Shown here: positions 721 to 33,342 of the stretch, in pieces
How positions within the stretch are numbered: position 1 is the first letter of the stretch
How the letters are laid out: the number at the start of each line of letters is the position of its first letter
NCBI GenBank assembly: GCA_944393455.1
Contig: CALYAH010000140.1
Location: forward strand, 1-36,923
Direction: 5' to 3'
Length of the DNA: 36,923 nt
DNA from: an uncultured Clostridia bacterium
GTDB taxonomy: Bacteria > Bacillota > Clostridia > TANB77 > CAG-508
Made by a program: the position numbers and the translations under genes
The notes under the pieces: generated by a model
What the model saw: the letters and a program-made list of their open reading frames with translations, nothing else
Told to the model about the DNA's origin: nothing
Database searches by the model: none

Positions 721-2352
721 CTATTTTGTTATATAAAGTTGTATTCTATATCCATAACTGTTAGAAACACTTTTGGTATTATATCTATGATATAGTACTT
801 GGAAATATGTTACATAACTTCCTCCTGTCCAGTAATCTCTAATTGCTCGACAACTGTTATCATTTTTATATATGTCCGCTGTCCATTCTGATTTGTTTCC
901 TGCAAAGTCATAAACATTAAACTTTTCATATTTATCACTGCTTCCTGTTTTCAAACTTTGACCATCAGATATATATCCTCCCCAGTTCCTTGAATCTAAA
1001 ACTTCTGATTCTGATAATCCATAGTGTACCATACAATTAATTACTGTATCCCATGTCTTATTTGTCATCATTCTACTTGTATAGCCATCTGTCTCCGTAT
1101 ACATACTTTCTGCTTTACTTTTTGCCGTATCCCAATCTGTTATATTTGGATTAGCTCCTCTTATTATTGTTGGAATTCCATTCGTTCCTATTCCTGTTTC
1201 ATATCTTCCTATATAATATCCTTTTGCACTTGTAATATATTTTTCATATGGTGTTTCTTCCGTATTCTCTGTATAGTCTGTTTGACTTCCTGTATATTTG
1301 TCTGAGATACTTGAATACTCTAATTTTATATTCCCTCCATCTACTGGTATCCTTACAAATTGATTATATTGTTTTTGTACTTTATATGTCCCATCTGTAT
1401 CTTTTTCTAACCAATTGATTTCCTCTGTTCCTTCTGGTATTTCATAAATTACTAATCCCTTACTTATTAGTTGTTCTTCTGGTATTCCAGACACTGCAAA
1501 TCCTGCTGGAATAGTAGCTTTATTTCCTTCTGTATCTGTGTAATTATCTTTTCTCGTTTCCTCTACTCGCTCTCCTACTACTGCATTAGTATTTATAGTA
1601 ACATTTTTTTCTTCTGATGCTACATTCCCATTTTCAATTACAAAAATATAATTTCCTTGTTCGGTTATATTAAATTCTAAATTTTCTGATGTATCCCAAT
1701 AGTTTTGTCCTTCTTTTTTATATTTTACTATCCACTTATCGATATAACCATTATATTGTATATTAGATATTGTTACTTTTATTCTATCATTTTCTGTATC
1801 TTCATAATTCACATCAAATGTTGGTTTATTTGTATTTTCTTCATACTCCACATTATATAAGTTATTCGTCAACTGATCCACTGTATAATAAGTTTCTCCA
1901 TCATATTCAAAACCATAATAACTTATAATACTTCTTTTAGCTATATTTACAAAAAATTCTTGCTCAATTCCTTCAATGTTTAAATCAGCCAAAGTCTGTG
2001 TGTCAAAAAATCGATATCCTGTTTTGTCTGTTATTCCAGATTCTCCCGGTGTAAATACTCTCGTTGCCTGAGCTGACACCTCTGCATTACTTGATATATC
2101 TTTTCCTAAGGATGTTAATATATCATCTCCTTGAAGTCCATTTACAGTTTCTCCGGATTTATATTTGTCATATATGTCGTTAATATTTGTTTGCATCATT
2201 TTTAATTCGGTACTAAATGTATTAAATTTCGAATTTTGTATAACACTTTTTCCACTATAAATAGTTACAGACGTTAATATTAAAAGAACAATAATTGTAA
2301 TTATTAATGATATAAGTGTTATTCCCTTGATATTTTTTCCATATTTCTTCAT
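721..2352 (-). CDS. secreted or surface protein: prepilin-type N-terminal signal, a middle Ig-like region, and a C-terminal FGE/SUMF1-like (sulfatase-modifying-factor fold) domain
   Basis: N-terminus is MKKYGKNIKG|ITLISLIITIIVLLIL (class III signal-like, with Ser instead of Glu at +5). C-terminus has YYIGRYETG, NVYDFAGNKSEWTAD, WTGGSY and YGYRIQLY, resembling FGE-domain motifs. GGAGGAAC SD precedes the ATG at 2352. Confidence 0.6.
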   Translation of the reverse strand: MKKYGKNIKGITLISLIITIIVLLILTSVTIYSGKSVIQNSKFNTFSTELKMMQTNINDIYDKYKSGETVNGLQGDDILTSLGKDISSNAEVSAQATRVFTPGESGITDKTGYRFFDTQTLADLNIEGIEQEFFVNIAKRSIISYYGFEYDGETYYTVDQLTNNLYNVEYEENTNKPTFDVNYEDTENDRIKVTISNIQYNGYIDKWIVKYKKEGQNYWDTSENLEFNITEQGNYIFVIENGNVASEEKNVTINTNAVVGERVEETRKDNYTDTEGNKATIPAGFAVSGIPEEQLISKGLVIYEIPEGTEEINWLEKDTDGTYKVQKQYNQFVRIPVDGGNIKLEYSSISDKYTGSQTDYTENTEETPYEKYITSAKGYYIGRYETGIGTNGIPTIIRGANPNITDWDTAKSKAESMYTETDGYTSRMMTNKTWDTVINCMVHYGLSESEVLDSRNWGGYISDGQSLKTGSSDKYEKFNVYDFAGNKSEWTADIYKNDNSCRAIRDYWTGGSYVTYFQVLYHRYNTKSVSNSYGYRIQLYITK

Positions 2353-27200: not shown

Positions 27201-27229
27201 CAAAAAAATACAAGCTGTTTTCAGCTTGT
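27201..27229 (-). terminator. rho-independent terminator ending the NTase/zeta-like operon
   Basis: Stem ACAAGCTG/CAGCTTGT with a 4-nt loop, followed on the minus strand by ATTTTTTTG, starting 3 nt after the TAG stop. Confidence 0.85.
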
Positions 27230-27231
27230 TT

Positions 27232-28116
27232 CTATTTTATATCTTCTTCTCTTTCTAAATTTGCTTTTTGTTTATAAAACTCTACCATTTTAGACAATAT
27301 TTCTAGTTCCTCTAGATTAGCAGGTCTTTTTTTTCTCTTTTTATATAACTCTTTTATTCTATCTAATTGTTCTCTATCTGTCTTTCTTCTTTTCTCATAT
27401 TCTTTACATTTTTCCATTGCTTCTATTGCATTTTTATATTTTTTTATTTTGTCTCTACTATCATATACTTTTATTGGTGGTTTTTGCTCATTTTCTCCTC
27501 TTCTATATATTTCTATTTTATTTACATTTTCTATTTTTTCTAATTCTTCCATTGTCTCATATATTTTTATTTCGGAGTCTTTTATAAAATTTATTGTTGT
27601 AAATCGTGGAAATTCTTTTTCTTCTATCTGTTTCTCATATCTTTCTTGAGAAGAAATTATGCATTCTTCTAATGAAGTTGCTATTAATAACACATCTACA
27701 CTATATCCATTTGGAATAAATTTATTATTAATAAAATTTATCATCAAATCTTTTTGACGAAGCGAAGTATTAATAATGATATTTTTTCTATTTTTCAATG
27801 AATATTCTAATATTTCACTAGCAACATTATTACAAAAATCACAAGATAATTCCACCATCTCACTTGTTGGTACCTCATTATTTTGAGTAAAAATTGGTGA
27901 ATATTTTCTATATTCATCTACATCAATTACAACATATTCACTTTCTTTGTTTTGCTGTAATACAAAATCACATAGACCTGTTTTTCCCGCTCCAGGAACT
28001 CCACCTAACAAAACCACTTTTGGTGTTAAATCATTTTGTTTACTGTCTACTAATTGATTTTTTAATGTTTCTATTATGTACTTTTCATCAACTTGTCTTT
28101 TGTAAAACTCTTCCAT
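27232..28116 (-). CDS. Zeta/PezT-like P-loop kinase with a long K/E-rich coiled C-terminus
   Basis: Walker A VVLLGGVPGAGKTG, YVVIDVDEYRKYSP (zeta-type DxD-x-Y-R) and IIINTSLRQKD (T-x-R). The ATG at 28116 is preferred; the track start at 28149 is a TTG. Confidence 0.7.
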   Translation of the reverse strand: MEEFYKRQVDEKYIIETLKNQLVDSKQNDLTPKVVLLGGVPGAGKTGLCDFVLQQNKESEYVVIDVDEYRKYSPIFTQNNEVPTSEMVELSCDFCNNVASEILEYSLKNRKNIIINTSLRQKDLMINFINNKFIPNGYSVDVLLIATSLEECIISSQERYEKQIEEKEFPRFTTINFIKDSEIKIYETMEELEKIENVNKIEIYRRGENEQKPPIKVYDSRDKIKKYKNAIEAMEKCKEYEKRRKTDREQLDRIKELYKKRKKRPANLEELEILSKMVEFYKQKANLEREEDIK

Positions 28117-28996
28117 GTTTCTTACCCTTCTTTTTATAAAAGTTTTCAATTGCTTTTACATTTTTACCAAATTCTTGCAAAATTGGTATTGTTGTTTCTA
28201 TTGGTGTATTTGTCAACATTTTCATTTGATCTTCATCTTTTGTTACAAGGCATTGTACAATTTTTCTTACTTCTTTGCTATCATTTTCTGTACCTAATAA
28301 CTGCATTGCAGCTTCTATTTGATTTTCCGGCATATCAATTTCATTCCAATTGCAATAATTTCTTAAATTTTGTAAGAATTTGTTGGTTGAATAAAAACAA
28401 TTTTCATATATTGTATCTTTCGGCATTTCATCATGGCTAAAAGTAAATTCGCAATTTTCTCCATCTACTTCCCATGTTAAATACCTATATTCTCTTTTTC
28501 TTAACATATCAATACAGTAATTTAGACCCTCGTGTGTATTTAAAATATCATCAATCGTATACCTCACAGTCTTAAATCTTCCAATGCAGTCTTCCCCATC
28601 TACAATTCTATATCTTTTAGCATATGAATATTTGTGCGTTACCGGTAAAAAGTCATCTAATTGACTTTCTTGATGAATCATAGCATGTATTAGAAAATTT
28701 TTGTCTTTTGTAGAAATATTGTGATTTACTGGACCAACTAGGCAACTGTAATTAACTCCGATGTCTTTTGTTGTTAATTTTCGCGACAATTTAGCTAAAA
28801 ATTTTTCAAAATCTCGTATTTGTTTTGACGTTACTTTTGTAGATACTGCTCGTATATCATAATCATTATCTGCTCTTTCTTGATAATCATCAAATGCCAT
28901 GGATCCCACTACAAAGATTGATTTTATTTTTTCATCATCTTTGAAATACCTTCTAAATTCGTTATCTACTATACTGGCTATTTTTTTAATTTCCAT
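28088..28996 (-). CDS. Pol-beta superfamily nucleotidyltransferase-domain protein (302 aa)
   Basis: IFVVGSMAFDDYQERADNDYDIRAV fits hhhGS-x(n)-DxD. AGGAG SD lies 9 nt upstream. The stop overlaps the downstream kinase gene by 29 nt. Confidence 0.7.
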   Translation of the reverse strand: MEIKKIASIVDNEFRRYFKDDEKIKSIFVVGSMAFDDYQERADNDYDIRAVSTKVTSKQIRDFEKFLAKLSRKLTTKDIGVNYSCLVGPVNHNISTKDKNFLIHAMIHQESQLDDFLPVTHKYSYAKRYRIVDGEDCIGRFKTVRYTIDDILNTHEGLNYCIDMLRKREYRYLTWEVDGENCEFTFSHDEMPKDTIYENCFYSTNKFLQNLRNYCNWNEIDMPENQIEAAMQLLGTENDSKEVRKIVQCLVTKDEDQMKMLTNTPIETTIPILQEFGKNVKAIENFYKKKGKKHGRVLQKTS

Positions 28997-29195
28997 AACT
29001 TATATCTCCTTTTTTCTTGATGCTATATTATATTAGGACAAGGATAATATTATGACTATTTTGTATAAATTTTTCTATTTCTTATTTTTTTATTTATAAA
29101 ATATTAAAGTTTTCTTAATAAAATATATTTCATTATTATCTATGTTATAGTTTAGTTAATCATTTAGTACAGGTATATTGGGGGTAACTATATAT

Positions 29196-30146
29196 ATGAA
29201 AAATAAGAATAAAAAGAAAAGAATAAATGGTGTAAAAATCTTTTTAATCATATTAATATTGGGAATCTTTTTTATTTATTTGGTAATGCAACCAGAAAAT
29301 TTTAGAAATGCCAAAAATCAGATTAGGATGTTATTATTCGAAAATTCAATAGAGGGCTCTTATAATGCAAAATCTTTGCTATTAGTTGACCTTTCAAATG
29401 ATAATGTTTTTATTTCTAAAAAAGAGAAAGAAAAGCATGTTCCTGCTAGTTTAGCAAAATTGTTTGTTATTGAATATGCAACAACACTTGCAGATTTAGA
29501 TAGCATAGTCTTTGCTAACAACGAAGCTATTTCTTTAACCAAACCTGGCTCATCTGTTGCAAACATCAAAGAAACTAAGTATTTTATGCACAATTTGTTT
29601 GCTGCAATGTTAATACCTTCTGGGAATGATGCAGCTTACGTAGTTGCTGATTATTGTGGTAGTATTCTTTCTCCCAAATCAAAAACTAGTAAAGAACGTA
29701 TCAATGTCTTTATGAAAAATTTAAATAGTTACTTGAAAGACAAAGGCTATAAAGATACAATTTTATATGACCCAAGTGGATTTGATACAGAAGCACGCAC
29801 AACTGCATTAGACCTAAAAAAAGTTGTAGAAAAATTATTAGAAAATCAATGGTTTAGAGACATTGTATCTCAAAGTTCTTACACAGCAACTTTACCAAAT
29901 GGTAGTACTCAAACTTGGAAAAATACAAATACTTTTCTTGACCCTACATCAGACTATTATAATAAAAATGTAATAGGAATTAAAACTGGTTCTTTATCTG
30001 ATGATTATAACTTAATAGTACTTTATCAAATGTATGGAAAAGAATTTTTAATTTGTAGTTTAGTCTCTCAATCAGATACTTCTCGATATGATGATGTTAA
30101 TTATATTATTCAAACAATAAATGAATCAGACTATTTAAAGAAATAA
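29196..30146 (+). CDS. serine-type D-Ala-D-Ala carboxypeptidase (S11, PBP5-like)
   Basis: SxxK (PASLAKLF), SxN (PSGNDAA) and KTG (IKTGSL) motifs, with an N-terminal membrane anchor. The ATG at 29196 is preferred over the TTG at 29178. Confidence 0.85.
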   Translation: MKNKNKKKRINGVKIFLIILILGIFFIYLVMQPENFRNAKNQIRMLLFENSIEGSYNAKSLLLVDLSNDNVFISKKEKEKHVPASLAKLFVIEYATTLADLDSIVFANNEAISLTKPGSSVANIKETKYFMHNLFAAMLIPSGNDAAYVVADYCGSILSPKSKTSKERINVFMKNLNSYLKDKGYKDTILYDPSGFDTEARTTALDLKKVVEKLLENQWFRDIVSQSSYTATLPNGSTQTWKNTNTFLDPTSDYYNKNVIGIKTGSLSDDYNLIVLYQMYGKEFLICSLVSQSDTSRYDDVNYIIQTINESDYLKK

Positions 30147-30235: not shown

Positions 30236-30309
<74 letters not shown>

Positions 30310-30342: not shown

Positions 30343-30416
<74 letters not shown>

Positions 30417-30532: not shown

Positions 30533-31606
30533 TTATTTTTCAATTTCCTTATTTTTTGTTTTTGGAGTACGAGTATTATTAGATTGCTTATTACTCATTA
30601 CTTTTGGTACTTTTACTTTTGGTACATTTGGCAATATTGCTTTGTTTTTTCTTTTTTGTTTTTTACCCCTAAACTTATTTGCATTAATATGACTTTCAAT
30701 CACTTTAGAAGTTCTGTGTATCCATCTATTAGCTTTATTCATATCTCTTGGAACAATTACAGCCTTTCCTATATTACTTTTGGTTGCATATTCTTGTATT
30801 TGACTGATTAATTCTGGGTCTGAATTCCCCATAATAGCTGCAACCATTCCATCATCAATCGCCTGTTTAAACATAGAAACATCATTATATCCATTTCCTA
30901 CACAAATATAGCCATATTCTGGTTTAAAATATCCAGCAATTGCTTTTACCATTTTACCTTTACTAATATTTTTAGGTGCTATATCTAACCTATAATTTCC
31001 TTGACCTTTTTTAGGAAATTTTGTAGCATCCATATCAGTCCAAAATCCTAATGTCTCTGCATATTTACTCATTTCTTCCATTTCTTTTTTAGTTCCTGCT
31101 AAAGTTATTTTTGTTATGTCTTTATTTTTTCTAAATTTGTCTTCTATTTTTGAATGCAACTTAGCAGTTTTACTATTTCTATAATACTCTTTAACTGTTT
31201 GCTCTTTTGATGCATGAATCTGATTCCCATCTGTATATCTTATTAGTTCTGATTTTCCTCCCATATCAATAAAAGCCTTTAATATTTTAGTAGCTTTTTC
31301 ATTTTCTAATGTTCTTTTAATAATAAATTCATCCTTAACTGTAGAGTAAACTACTGCTCCATTATCACCTATTATTATTGGTGGTAACATTATGTTTCTT
31401 TTCTTAAAGTCTTCTTTTATATCTCCCACTGTTCTTCCTGTTATTGGCACTACCATTCCACCCATTTTTGTAATTAACTTTAGGGTGTTACTTAATTGTT
31501 GATCTTCTAAATTCAATGTTCCATCTTTGTCTGTAAACACAATAAACTTGGGCTTCTTAATTCCTTTTATATTTAATTTTTTATTTTCTCTTTTATTTTT
31601 TCTCAA
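30533..31606 (-). CDS. HAD-superfamily (Cof-type) phosphatase with a basic C-terminal tail
   Basis: VFTDKDGTLN (DxDxT), PITGRT and GNGYNDVSMF motifs. The start is uncertain: the TTG at 31606 sits 8 nt after AGGAG, while the ATG at 31642 lies only ~7 nt from the predicted transcription start. Confidence 0.8.
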   Translation of the reverse strand: MRKNKRENKKLNIKGIKKPKFIVFTDKDGTLNLEDQQLSNTLKLITKMGGMVVPITGRTVGDIKEDFKKRNIMLPPIIIGDNGAVVYSTVKDEFIIKRTLENEKATKILKAFIDMGGKSELIRYTDGNQIHASKEQTVKEYYRNSKTAKLHSKIEDKFRKNKDITKITLAGTKKEMEEMSKYAETLGFWTDMDATKFPKKGQGNYRLDIAPKNISKGKMVKAIAGYFKPEYGYICVGNGYNDVSMFKQAIDDGMVAAIMGNSDPELISQIQEYATKSNIGKAVIVPRDMNKANRWIHRTSKVIESHINANKFRGKKQKRKNKAILPNVPKVKVPKVMSNKQSNNTRTPKTKNKEIEK

Positions 31607-31655
31607 CTTTTCATCTCCTAAGACTTTAAAACTACAATACATAGTTTACATATTT

Positions 31656-31743: not shown

Positions 31744-33342
31744 TTATTTCTTAGCTGCTTTTATTAATCCGACAAATAATGGAGCTGGTCTATTAGGTCT
31801 AGATTTTAACTCTGGATGGAATTGACCTGCTATAAAGTATGGATGATCTTCTAATTCTACAATTTCTACTAATAGTCCATCTGGCGATGTTCCTGAAACT
31901 TTTAATCCTGCCTCTTCCAATTTTTGTCTATAATCATTATTATATTCATATCTATGTCTATGTCTTTCTGATATTTCATTAGTTCCGTATACTTTCTTAG
32001 CCAAACTTCCTTCTTTTATTACACAAGGGTACGCCCCTAAACGCATTGTTCCACCTTTTTTATCTATTCCCTTTTGTTCTTCCATTATATGAATAACTGG
32101 ATTTTTTGTATTTTCATCTAGTTCAGCCGAATTAGCATCTTTTAAATTTAATACATTTCTTGCAAATTCTACAACTGCCATTTGCATTCCCAAACATATT
32201 CCCAAAAATGGAACTTTATTTTCCCTAACATAACGAATCGTTTCTATTTTTCCTTCAATTCCTCTGTTTCCAAATCCGCCAGGTACGACGATTCCATCAT
32301 ATTTAGAAAGTTTATCTTTTACATTTTCTTTATTTATCGTTTCTGAATCTACTAAATCTACTTTGACTTTTACATGGTTAGCAAATCCTGCATGATATAA
32401 ACTTTCAATTACAGAAATATAAGAGTCCTCTAATTTTATATATTTTCCAACAATTGCTATGTTAACTACATTTTCTTTATCTATATTTCTAATATCATCT
32501 ATCATTTCTTGCCATTTTGAATTATCTGGAATATAATTATCTAATTTTAGATGGTTACAAACTTCTCTTGCTAATCCCTTTTCTTCTAACATTAATGGGA
32601 CTGCATATAAGCAATCTGCTGTTTTATTTTCAATAACACTTGTTTTTCTTACATTACAAAATAATGATAATTTTTCTCTTACACTATCTGGTATATCTGT
32701 TTCTGTTCTGCACACTAAAATGTTTGGTTTAATTCCAAATCCTTGTAATTCTTTTACAGAATGTTGTGTTGGTTTTGATTTTATTTCATTTGAACCTGCT
32801 ATATATGGTAATAACGTTACATGAATATATATAACATCCTCTGGATCTTTTTCTAAACCAACTTCTCTAATAACTTCTATAATAGAAAGCCCTTAAATAT
32901 CTCCTACTGTTCCTCCAACTTCTGTAATTACAATATCTGTATCGGTTTCTTCGAATCCATAAATTCTTTCTTTTATTTCATTTGTTATATGAGGAATTAC
33001 TTGTACAGTTTTTCCTAAGTATTCGCCCTTTCTTTCTTTTTCAATTACACTAGAATATACTTTTCCCATTGTTACACTAGAATTATGAGTTAGATTTTCA
33101 TCAATAAATCTTTCATAATGTCCTAAATCTAAATCTGTTTCTGCTCCATCATCTGTTACAAAAACTTCTCCATGTTCATATGGGTTCATTGTTCCTGGGT
33201 CTACATTAATATAAGGATCAAATTTTTGTATTGTTACCTTATATCCTCTGTTTTTCAATAGTCTCCCTAGCGATGCAGCTGTAATTCCTTTTCCTAGTCC
33301 TGATACGACTCCTCCTGTTACAAATATGTACTTTGTGTTCAT
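31744..33342 (-). pseudogene. pyrG: CTP synthase interrupted by one in-frame TAA (codon 150)
   Basis: [20 protein letters not shown]...[26 protein letters not shown]...KSKPTQHSVKEL...GICLGMQ...RHRHRYE. Both track ORFs (32893-33342 and 31744-32715) and the segment between them are in one frame. The TAA at 32895-32893 replaces the Glu of the conserved GGTVGDIE motif. Confidence 0.9.

What the first reader, a model, noticed from the sequence alone, without database searches (positions are those of the whole stretch)
27232..28996. Nucleotidyltransferase + Zeta/PezT-like kinase two-gene module: candidate undescribed toxin-antitoxin or defence-type system
This is a compact minus-strand operon with its own SDs, a 29-nt gene overlap that suggests translational coupling, and a strong private terminator (27201-27229). 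The downstream product has the Zeta-toxin layout: P-loop GGVPGAGKT, VIDVDEYRKY and NTSLR. Characterised zeta/PezT toxins phosphorylate UDP-GlcNAc and poison peptidoglycan synthesis. This one also has a long K/E-rich coiled tail. Canonical zeta toxins are neutralised by a small epsilon or PezA antitoxin encoded just upstream, and no such ORF exists here. The antitoxin slot is instead filled by a 302-aa Pol-beta-fold nucleotidyltransferase (VVGSMAFDDYQERADNDYDI) with a ~200-aa C-terminal region I cannot assign. NTases act as enzymatic antitoxins in MNT-HEPN systems, where they nucleotidylate the toxin, and as toxins in AbiEii. I know of no described NTase-Zeta pairing. The module lies between alr-femX and a DD-carboxypeptidase gene, i.e. 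among cell-wall genes. That fits either a UNAG-directed toxin or, alternatively, a precursor-modifying or antibiotic-modifying enzyme pair.
Basis: partly seen in the sequence, partly recalled or inferred. Interest (0 to 1): 0.75.

Follow-up and report, generated by a model that had tools for sequence, protein, structure and literature searches.

The report
Zeta-type kinase coupled to ANT-like nucleotidyltransferase
The two overlapping genes are real, but the nucleotidyltransferase belongs to a small, vertically inherited family that is almost always paired with a phosphodiesterase instead, so the zeta-type kinase looks like a lineage-specific add-on to an uncharacterised enzyme module and not a toxin-antitoxin pair.

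Summary
There are two minus-strand genes: a 302-aa nucleotidyltransferase (NTase, 28088-28996) and a 294-aa kinase (27232-28116). They overlap by 29 nt, each has a Shine-Dalgarno (SD) site, and a terminator follows them. The kinase is a full-length Zeta/PezT-fold kinase (Pfam E 1e-30; TM 0.75 to zeta). Its P-loop and catalytic Asp are intact, but the GTxR motif that binds UDP-GlcNAc is not kept. The NTase is a confident two-domain Pol-beta enzyme. Its closest folds are the aminoglycoside NTases ANT(9), AadA and ANT(4'), not the minimal MNT antitoxins.

The toxin-antitoxin reading is weakly supported. In 21 of 22 species genomes the NTase sits next to a cytoplasmic PF01663 phosphodiesterase (PDE). 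In one clade that pair sits at a fixed jag/mnmE position and diverges at a housekeeping-like rate. The kinase is adjacent in only two lineages: the window clade (NTase-kinase, no PDE nearby) and one genus with PDE-NTase-kinase. No plasmid, phage or defence-model match was found for the NTase, and GC content is uniform.

Best reading: a chromosomal enzyme module acting on a nucleotide-linked substrate, to which a zeta-type kinase was recruited. An enzymatic-antitoxin role for the NTase stays possible (about 0.2). The substrate is unknown.

The parts
28088..28996 (-). Gene for a 302-aa two-domain Pol-beta-fold nucleotidyltransferase (GS-x12-D45-x-D47). It belongs to a very small family.
   Evidence: ORF. 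Invariant motif in 37 homologues. AF2 model pLDDT 91. Foldseek best hits are ANT(9) 6xz0 at E 1e-5 and TM 0.53, then AadA and ANT(4'). Only 136 representatives among 1.84 billion proteins.
27232..28116 (-). Gene for a 294-aa Zeta/PezT-fold P-loop kinase. It has Walker A GVPGAGKT with K45 and the catalytic-base equivalent D67. R120 and R159 align with zeta R120 and R158, and R171 lies one column from zeta R171. The GTxR position reads T-S-L-R.
   Evidence: PF06414 E 1.1e-30. PezT 2p5t E 3.6e-11 and zeta 1gvn E 4e-9. AF2 pLDDT 87. Foldseek to zeta 3q8x E 2e-14, TM 0.75 over 283 columns. Family conservation.
28088..28116 (-). 29-nt overlap between the NTase 3' end (tandem TGA TGA) and the kinase start. 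A GAAGGG SD-like element lies at 28130-28125. The layout suggests translational coupling.
   Evidence: Sequence. Identical 29-nt overlap in L031, L032, L034 and L043; 11-nt overlap in L001.
27201..27229 (-). Intrinsic terminator after the kinase gene: stem-loop at 27210-27229 followed by a T-run.
28997..29177 (.). Divergent intergenic spacer holding the NTase SD (AGGAG, 29010-29006) and presumably the operon promoter. The promoter-like hexamers here are no more frequent than chance.
   Evidence: No Rfam element.

Best explanation
This is a chromosomally fixed, co-translated two-enzyme operon and not an addiction or defence cassette.

The NTase belongs to a tiny family of ANT-like, two-domain Pol-beta nucleotidyltransferases found in uncultured gut Firmicutes. 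The ancestral functional partner of this family is a cytoplasmic alkaline-phosphatase-superfamily phosphodiesterase (PF01663, with PglZ/PorX-like features).

Inferred logic, none of it shown: the NTase attaches an NMP to a hydroxyl group of a small molecule or nucleotide. The PDE cleaves that phosphodiester, so the two act as writer and eraser, or as synthase and hydrolase.

In one sub-lineage a catalytically intact Zeta/PezT-fold kinase was recruited downstream, giving PDE-NTase-kinase. In the window's lineage the PDE is no longer adjacent, leaving NTase-kinase. All characterised zeta-fold kinases phosphorylate a sugar 3'-OH of a nucleotide-linked substrate (UDP-GlcNAc, UDP-sugars, NAD). I therefore infer that this kinase, which has a divergent substrate pocket, phosphorylates the same class of nucleotide-linked compound that the NTase and PDE handle. 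It would either feed, cap or block the NTase reaction.

Shown here: folds, catalytic motifs, operon structure, phyletic and synteny patterns. Inferred: the shared substrate and the direction of the reactions.
For: NTase partner statistics: a PDE is adjacent in 21 of 22 species genomes and a kinase in 1 of 22. Further metagenomic contexts agree.

Vertical inheritance: jag-NTase-PDE-mnmE is fixed in at least 7 species. NTase identity there is 54-72% and PDE 55-64%, against RsmG 67-69%, MnmE 64-79% and RnpA 68-77%. The window and L031 share the NTase-kinase-femX-alr-DUF1189-ftsH order. GC content is uniform at 28%.

Independent domain-level links between this NTase family and phosphoesterases: distant members are fused to His_Phos_1 (5 members) and CYTH (1 member).

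The NTase fold is ANT-like, that is, of the small-molecule-modifying type. Its invariant residues are shared between kinase-linked and PDE-linked members.

The kinase keeps its phosphotransfer residues but not GTxR, E100 or T128 of zeta (PMC3062530, PMC6362051).

In the NJ tree the kinase-linked NTases are nested among PDE-only ones, so the kinase is accessory.

Cytoplasmic PF01663 and PglZ-type enzymes are known to cleave (cyclic) oligonucleotides: AtaC (PMC7132281) and PorX (PMC9757075, abstract).

There are no NTase homologues in the plasmid or viral collections and no PADLOC or PHROGs hit.
Against: No substrate is identified, and nothing here shows that the enzymes share one.

Every characterised Zeta-domain protein is a toxin that needs a protein inhibitor, and here the only constant neighbour of the kinase is the NTase.

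The NTase and kinase evolve faster than the flanking housekeeping genes in the window clade: 80% and 73% identity against 85-96%.

The DNA upstream of the NTase varies between close relatives. In L031 an ORF6N/Rha gene plus a 237-aa gene sit there, and tRNA genes lie nearby in the window.

In L001 conjugation genes lie just upstream.

The canonical third acidic residue of the NTase is not evident; an invariant His occupies that strand.

I could not check whether the window's genome has an unlinked PDE.
Confidence: 0.45

Rival explanations
1. A new toxin-antitoxin pair. The zeta-type kinase is a toxin, and the upstream NTase neutralises it, either by nucleotidylating it (as in type VII MntA-HepT) or by binding it. 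In this reading the toxin gene attached itself to a pre-existing conserved NTase gene.
For: All characterised PF06414 kinases are toxins (PMC3062530, PMC5923241, PMC4938570). There is no small antitoxin ORF. In all six contexts seen, the kinase directly follows and overlaps the NTase. The catalytic residues are conserved. Orphan zeta toxins with unknown antitoxins are documented (PMC10532202). The region upstream of the NTase is variable or mobile-like in L031 and L001.
Against: The NTase predates the kinase and mostly lacks it, and it keeps the same invariant residues with or without the kinase. The NTase is ANT-like, 302 aa, not MNT-like. The GTxR motif is absent. The locus is syntenic and vertically inherited with no compositional anomaly. 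There are no defence-model hits.
Confidence: 0.2
2. A pair of intrinsic xenobiotic- or antibiotic-modifying enzymes. The ANT-like NTase and a CPT/zeta-like kinase each inactivate an aminoglycoside-, lincosamide- or nucleoside-type compound met in animal guts.
For: The best structural matches of the NTase are ANT(9), AadA and ANT(4'). Two distant family members hit PF04439, streptomycin adenylyltransferase. Members of the PDE family are fused to GNAT acetyltransferases. All source genomes are livestock or rabbit gut MAGs.
Against: Identity to the ANTs is only 8-13% and TM about 0.5. There is no NCBIfam (including AMR) hit. The pair sits at a conserved housekeeping position across genera and has no plasmid copies. 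A PDE partner is not expected for a resistance enzyme.
Confidence: 0.12
3. An RNA or tRNA end-healing module. The phosphoesterase removes 2',3'-cyclic or 3'-phosphates, the P-loop kinase phosphorylates 5'-OH ends, and the Pol-beta NTase rebuilds 3' ends.
For: The kinase also matches AAA_33 and polynucleotide-kinase profiles and folds. The NTase family is linked to His_Phos_1, CYTH and AP-type phosphoesterases. The neighbours in the Bacilli clade are RNA-related (rnpA, jag, mnmE/G, rsmG).
Against: The kinase is far closer to zeta/PezT (E 2e-14) than to PNK (E about 3e-4). The NTase does not resemble CCA-adding or poly(A) enzymes in the fold search. There is no ligase or Hen1 partner.
Confidence: 0.08
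4. The adjacency has no functional meaning, and the two genes are unrelated.
For: The kinase is present in only a minority of NTase loci.
Against: Overlapping reading frames are conserved in two lineages that differ in flanking context.
Confidence: 0.05

Closest known systems
epsilon/zeta and PezAT (UDP-GlcNAc 3'-kinase toxins)
   Same: Same Pfam family and the same full-length fold, including the C-terminal helices. The Walker A Lys, the catalytic Asp (zeta D67) and the Arg residues are kept.
   Different: Only 18-24% identity. GTxR reads T-[S/P/T]-L-R, and zeta E100 and T128 are not kept. There is no epsilon/PezA gene. The upstream partner is a 302-aa enzyme. The locus is chromosomal, syntenic and not plasmid-borne.
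AvrRxo1-Arc1 (zeta-fold NAD 3'-kinase) and other atypical zeta proteins (Rv0366c, ng_zeta1)
   Same: Zeta-fold kinases whose UNAG motif is altered, implying a different nucleotide-linked substrate (PMC4938570, PMC6362051).
   Different: A weaker structural match (E 1e-7, TM 0.57). Those proteins still have small proteinaceous antitoxins.
MntA-HepT (type VII TA; the NTase AMPylates the toxin)
   Same: The upstream gene is a Pol-beta NTase with GS...DxD. The N-terminal domain superposes on MNT antitoxins (ranks 23-37).
   Different: MNT proteins are about 100-145 aa single-domain proteins paired with HEPN RNases. Here the NTase is a 302-aa two-domain protein, there is no HEPN partner, and its usual partner is a phosphodiesterase.
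Aminoglycoside nucleotidyltransferases ANT(9), AadA/ANT(3'')(9) and ANT(4')
   Same: The best whole-protein structural matches, with the same layout of an NTase domain followed by a helical C-terminal domain.
   Different: 8-13% identity and TM about 0.4-0.5. No Pfam or NCBIfam membership. There is an extra beta-hairpin, and the conserved residues are rich in His and Cys. The setting is housekeeping-like.
AtaC (c-di-AMP phosphodiesterase) and the PorX/PglZ oligonucleotide phosphodiesterases (these relate to the usual partner gene, which is absent from the window)
   Same: Cytoplasmic single-domain enzymes of about 370-390 aa in PF01663 or the AP superfamily. The partner PDE also hits PglZ (31 bits against a 25-bit cut-off) and weakly hits PorX (PMC7132281, PMC9757075).
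   Different: No direct sequence comparison with AtaC was possible. Substrate specificity is untested.

Membership tests
Zeta/PezT kinase superfamily (PF06414) | Significant match to the family profile and fold | tested here: met
   PF06414 at 107 bits against a 22.3-bit cut-off. Foldseek to zeta TM 0.75, E 2e-14.
Zeta/PezT kinase superfamily (PF06414) | Walker A GxxGxGK[ST] and the catalytic-base Asp (zeta D67 / PezT D66) | tested here: met
   GVPGAGKT and VIDVD align to zeta and PezT and are conserved in all full-length homologues.
UDP-GlcNAc-kinase zeta toxins (epsilon/zeta, PezAT) | GTxR UNAG-binding motif (zeta G117-T121), plus E100 and T128 | tested here: not met
   The aligned segment is N-T-S-L-R-Q. 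The T118 position is S, P or T across the clade, E100 aligns to S, and T128 aligns to F. The motif is defined in PMC6362051 and PMC3062530.
UDP-GlcNAc-kinase zeta toxins (epsilon/zeta, PezAT) | Small epsilon/PezA-type antitoxin gene directly upstream | tested here: not met
   The upstream gene is the 302-aa NTase, and the spacer holds no candidate small ORF.
UDP-GlcNAc-kinase zeta toxins (epsilon/zeta, PezAT) | Toxicity of the free kinase, with neutralisation by the partner | not testable with these tools
   This needs expression experiments.
MNT-HEPN (type VII) TA | Minimal NTase of about 100-150 aa paired with a HEPN RNase (Rx4-6H) | tested here: not met
   The NTase is a 302-aa two-domain protein, and only its N-terminal domain matches MNT (TMq about 0.25). 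The partner is a kinase. No HEPN hit was found.
AbiEii/DUF1814 NTase toxins | Match to the DUF1814/AbiEii profile, with an AbiEi partner | tested here: not met
   No such Pfam or PADLOC hit.
Aminoglycoside/lincosamide nucleotidyltransferases | Sequence membership in an ANT/Lnu family (Pfam or NCBIfam AMR models) | tested here: not met
   NCBIfam gave 0 hits. Pfam gave only sub-threshold generic Polbeta/NTP_transf_2 hits. PDB sequence search found nothing.
Aminoglycoside/lincosamide nucleotidyltransferases | Two-domain ANT-type fold | tested here: met
   The top 21 Foldseek hits are ANT(9), AadA/ANT(3'')(9) and ANT(4'), at E 1e-5 to 3e-3 and TM 0.40-0.53.
Known anti-phage defence systems (PADLOC-DB v2) | Significant match of either protein to a defence-system model | tested here: not met
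   Only E 0.014 (PDC-S09) and E 0.0066 (mad8).

The most novel reading that the evidence does not exclude
Two novel readings are not excluded. In the first, the NTase is an enzymatic antitoxin or regulator that nucleotidylates the zeta-type kinase. That would be a new TA type joining the zeta and type VII logics, possibly with the phosphodiesterase acting as the de-nucleotidylating activator in the three-gene form. In the second, the NTase-phosphodiesterase pair makes and breaks a so far unknown nucleotide-linked metabolite or messenger, and the zeta-fold kinase serves as a non-toxic physiological modifier. That would be the first housekeeping role for a zeta-family kinase.
Probability: 0.2. 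Interest if true: 0.8.

Novelty: new variant of a known kind. Interest (0 to 1): 0.45.

Why it matters
Every zeta-family kinase studied so far is a toxin held in check by a small protein. This one is catalytically intact and sits in a vertically inherited, translationally coupled operon with an enzyme whose own conserved partner is a phosphodiesterase.

If the kinase is not toxic, zeta-fold kinases have ordinary metabolic or signalling roles. If it is toxic, the NTase would be a new kind of enzymatic antitoxin.

Apart from the kinase, the NTase-phosphodiesterase pair is itself an uncharacterised, conserved module. In a group of uncultured gut Firmicutes it lies near the origin of replication, and in one lineage it lies where gdpP normally sits. 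That placement hints at nucleotide-messenger turnover.

Tried and rejected
Sequence and profile searches:
- NCBIfam, PADLOC and PHROGs gave nothing useful for the NTase.
- A PDB sequence search for the NTase found nothing.

Collection scans:
- JGI metagenome contigs with the kinase profile: none.
- IMG/VR with the kinase and NTase profiles: none.
- Plasmid tblastn with the NTase: none.
- A BFVD fold search of the NTase gave no match at E<=1e-3.
- Rfam on the locus found only two tRNA genes.

Specific ideas tested and dropped:
- A conserved XRE/HTH regulator as part of the module. The HTH genes next to L001 and L006 are unrelated and lineage-specific.
- The window's HAD phosphatase gene (30533-31642) as the counterpart of the HAD domain fused to some PDE homologues. 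The similarity is only generic: 30% over 96 aa.
- An alternative genetic code as the cause of the split pyrG. The long housekeeping ORFs are intact under table 11, and the break is a single in-frame TAA.
- A HEPN-like Rx4-6H motif in the NTase C-domain. I inspected the alignment by eye and found none.
- Promoter hexamer matches are no more frequent than chance.

Not possible with these tools: reading model coordinates to map the active-site residues, and any direct comparison with AtaC sequences.
Full report
**1. What is in the sequence**

The minus strand between 27201 and 29010 carries two overlapping genes.

- The upstream ORF (28088-28996) encodes 302 aa. It starts at an ATG preceded by AGGAG (29010-29006).
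- The downstream ORF is longest from a TTG at 28149. All homologues, however, begin M[ES]EFYKRQ, which corresponds to the ATG at 28116. That gives 294 aa (27232-28116), a GAAGGG element 9-14 nt upstream, and a 29-nt overlap with the upstream gene, which ends in TGA TGA.
- A terminator follows: an 8-bp G+C-containing stem at 27210-27229 and then a T-run.
- The 181-nt spacer upstream contains no plausible small ORF and no Rfam element.
- The flanking genes are FemAB-family, alanine racemase, DUF1189 and FtsH downstream, and a divergent Peptidase_S11 gene upstream.
- GC content is a uniform 28% across the window.

**2. The kinase**

- It matches Pfam Zeta_toxin at E 1.1e-30 and NCBIfam PezT only far below the cut-off.
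- Among solved structures, only PezT (E 3.6e-11) and zeta (E 4e-9) are found by sequence.
- An AlphaFold model (pLDDT 87) superposes on zeta over 283 columns (TM 0.75, E 2e-14). PezT comes next, then AvrRxo1 (E 1e-7), and only then the NMP and polynucleotide kinases.
- The C-terminal K/E-rich helices are part of this alignment. They are also covered by plasmid-borne 'zeta toxin family' proteins at 22-24% identity. The tail is therefore a family feature and not an addition.
- Across 10 close homologues, the Walker A motif, the Asp equivalent to zeta D67, and R120, R159 and R171 are conserved.
- The GTxR motif binds UDP-GlcNAc in zeta and PezT. Changing its Thr abolishes PezT toxicity (PMC3062530; motif named in PMC6362051). 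Here the motif reads T-[S/P/T]-L-R. Zeta E100 and T128 align to Ser and Phe.

So the phosphotransfer machinery is intact, but the substrate pocket differs from that of the UNAG kinases.

**3. The NTase**

- Profile searches give only sub-threshold Pol-beta NTase hits, no NCBIfam hit and no PDB sequence hit.
- The alignment of 37 homologues shows an invariant GS-x12-(N)D45-Y-D47 signature. It also shows many invariant His, Cys, Glu and Trp residues through the C-terminal two thirds. The usual third acidic residue is not obvious; an invariant His (H104) occupies that strand.
- The AlphaFold model is confident (pLDDT 91, pTM 0.85).
- Its best PDB matches are the two-domain aminoglycoside NTases ANT(9), AadA and ANT(4') (E 1e-5 to 1e-3, TM 0.4-0.53, 8-13% identity).
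- MNT antitoxins match only the N-terminal domain.
- The family is tiny. A profile search of 1.84 billion representative proteins found 136 at E<=1e-3.
- Among the distant members, five are fused to a histidine-phosphatase domain, one to CYTH and one to an alpha/beta hydrolase. Two weakly match the streptomycin adenylyltransferase family.

**4. Comparative context: the decisive evidence**

A scan of one genome per species (GTDB r232) returned 22 loci. All come from uncultured gut MAGs of chickens, rabbits and ruminants.

| Setting | Gene order |
|---|---|
| 21 of 22 species loci | A ~370-aa PF01663 phosphodiesterase gene directly abuts the NTase |
| 'Bacilli' clade | NTase then PDE |
| Clade containing the window | PDE then NTase |
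| 1 of 22 species loci (L010 = L001) | PDE-NTase-kinase |
| Window and its close relatives (NTase 80% identical) | NTase-kinase-femX-alr-DUF1189-ftsH; no PDE anywhere in the 36.9-kb window |

- In an NJ tree of the NTases, the kinase-linked members are nested among PDE-only members. The kinase is therefore an accessory gene that was gained, and lost or not fixed, within a lineage whose ancestral state is PDE-NTase.
- In the Bacilli clade the pair sits between jag and mnmE next to the replication origin in at least seven species, plus one (L030) where the NTase is there without a PDE. NTase identity (54-72%) and PDE identity (55-64%) are similar to those of the neighbouring RsmG, MnmE and RnpA. 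This is the signature of a vertically inherited gene under purifying selection, not of a mobile TA or defence cassette.
- Between the window and L031, the NTase (80%) and kinase (73%) diverge faster than FemX, Alr and FtsH (91-96%), but they stay at the same position.
- The NTase has no relatives in the plasmid or viral collections. Neither protein has a PADLOC hit.

**5. The usual partner**

- The PDE has the alkaline-phosphatase-superfamily metal and nucleophile motifs (DGMGS, a T-rich nucleophile segment, TADHGH).
- It matches PF01663, and in some members it also matches PglZ above the cut-off. It matches PorX and PglZ NCBIfam models weakly.
- It has no signal peptide. This is my reading of the N-termini.
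- Its wider family is large: 1350 clusters, named only 'alkaline phosphatase family protein'. It includes fusions to Cof-type HAD phosphatases and to GNAT acetyltransferases.
- Characterised cytoplasmic relatives of this kind cleave nucleotide phosphodiesters. AtaC hydrolyses c-di-AMP and pApA (PMC7132281). PorX's PglZ domain is linked to oligonucleotide signalling (PMC9757075, abstract).
- In one lineage, PDE-NTase lies between a 65-aa DHHA1 remnant (GGGGH motif) and rplI-dnaB. From my own knowledge of Firmicute gene order, that is where gdpP normally sits. This is a lead, not a test.

**6. Interpretation**

- The NTase keeps the same invariant residues whether its neighbour is the PDE, the kinase or both. 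Its biochemical role is therefore most likely the same everywhere, which makes a dedicated antitoxin role unlikely.
- This NTase family has become linked to phosphoesterases by more than one route: adjacency to an AP-superfamily PDE, and fusion to His_Phos_1 or CYTH. That points to a reaction cycle in which a nucleotidyl phosphodiester is made and then cleaved.
- Zeta-fold kinases with known substrates all phosphorylate a 3'-OH on a nucleotide-linked compound.
- The most economical reading is that the kinase joined this module because it acts on the same class of substrate. In the window's lineage it remains as the NTase's only linked partner.
- I give about 0.45 to this general 'enzyme module, not addiction module' reading. 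Its specifics are inferred: the shared substrate and the order of reactions.
- The main rival (about 0.2) is that the kinase is toxic and the NTase neutralises it. What keeps this rival alive is the universal toxicity of characterised zeta proteins and the strict NTase-kinase overlap.
- Lesser rivals are xenobiotic modification (ANT-like fold, GNAT fusions in the partner family) and RNA-end repair.

**7. Novelty and score**

- I found no report of an NTase-zeta pairing. A 2023 survey of genes upstream of orphan zeta toxins lists Pfam matches for four of its nine largest upstream-gene clusters (KduI, ParD-like, Mor and AA_kinase), and none of these is an NTase (PMC10532202).
- The kinase is a new, divergent member of a known family in an unusual genetic setting.
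- The NTase-PDE pair is an uncharacterised conserved module.
- This is less dramatic than a new defence system, and the evidence leans against that reading. It remains a testable oddity, so interest is 0.45.

Noticed in passing
window 31744-33342 (-), stop at 32893-32895: The CTP synthase gene (pyrG) is interrupted by a single in-frame TAA where homologues have Glu (GDI*GLS... against the usual GDIESLP...). The reading frame continues unbroken after it. This is a nonsense mutation, a pseudogene or a sequencing error.
   Followed up: partly
window 30236-30309 and 30343-30416 (-): Two tandem tRNA-Gly(UCC) genes lie between the DD-carboxypeptidase and HAD genes, about 3 kb from the FemAB-family gene. 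They could supply Gly for peptidoglycan cross-bridges, or mark an integration hotspot next to the variable region upstream of the NTase.
   Followed up: no
window 30533-31642 (-): A Cof-type HAD phosphatase (Hydrolase_3/S6PP) with a long Lys-rich C-terminal tail. Some homologues of the NTase's usual PDE partner are fused to a HAD domain of the same Pfam family, but the similarity to this protein is only generic (30% over 96 aa).
   Followed up: partly
L036 5623-7891 (also L037-L039): A 65-aa DHHA1 fragment (GGGGH motif) is followed by PDE-NTase and then rplI-dnaB. From my own knowledge of Firmicute gene order, this is the position usually held by the c-di-AMP phosphodiesterase gene gdpP. It may be an in-situ replacement.
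   Followed up: partly
L041 7001-8506 (protein P0089): A 501-aa homologue (35% identity) in which the NTase is fused to an unassigned C-terminal domain of about 200 aa. It sits in a cluster with two radical-SAM genes downstream, a NUDIX gene and an AlaRS-like gene, with a third radical-SAM gene just upstream.
   Followed up: no
L031 3-1654 compared with window 28997-30146: The DNA upstream of the NTase differs between close relatives. L031 has an ORF6N/Rha-type (phage antirepressor-like) gene plus an unassigned 237-aa gene; the window has a divergent DD-carboxypeptidase gene.
   Followed up: partly
L030 5977-6891: This is the one species locus where the NTase (42% identical) sits between jag and mnmE with no adjacent PDE gene. 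It is an exception to the pairing.
   Followed up: partly
protein P0101 (776-nt contig): A 208-aa kinase fragment carrying precomputed hits to both PF00217 (guanido phosphotransferase) and Zeta_toxin. It may be a chimera or a mis-call.
   Followed up: no
window 721-2352 (-): A 543-aa ORF with no Pfam family at E<=1e-5.
   Followed up: no
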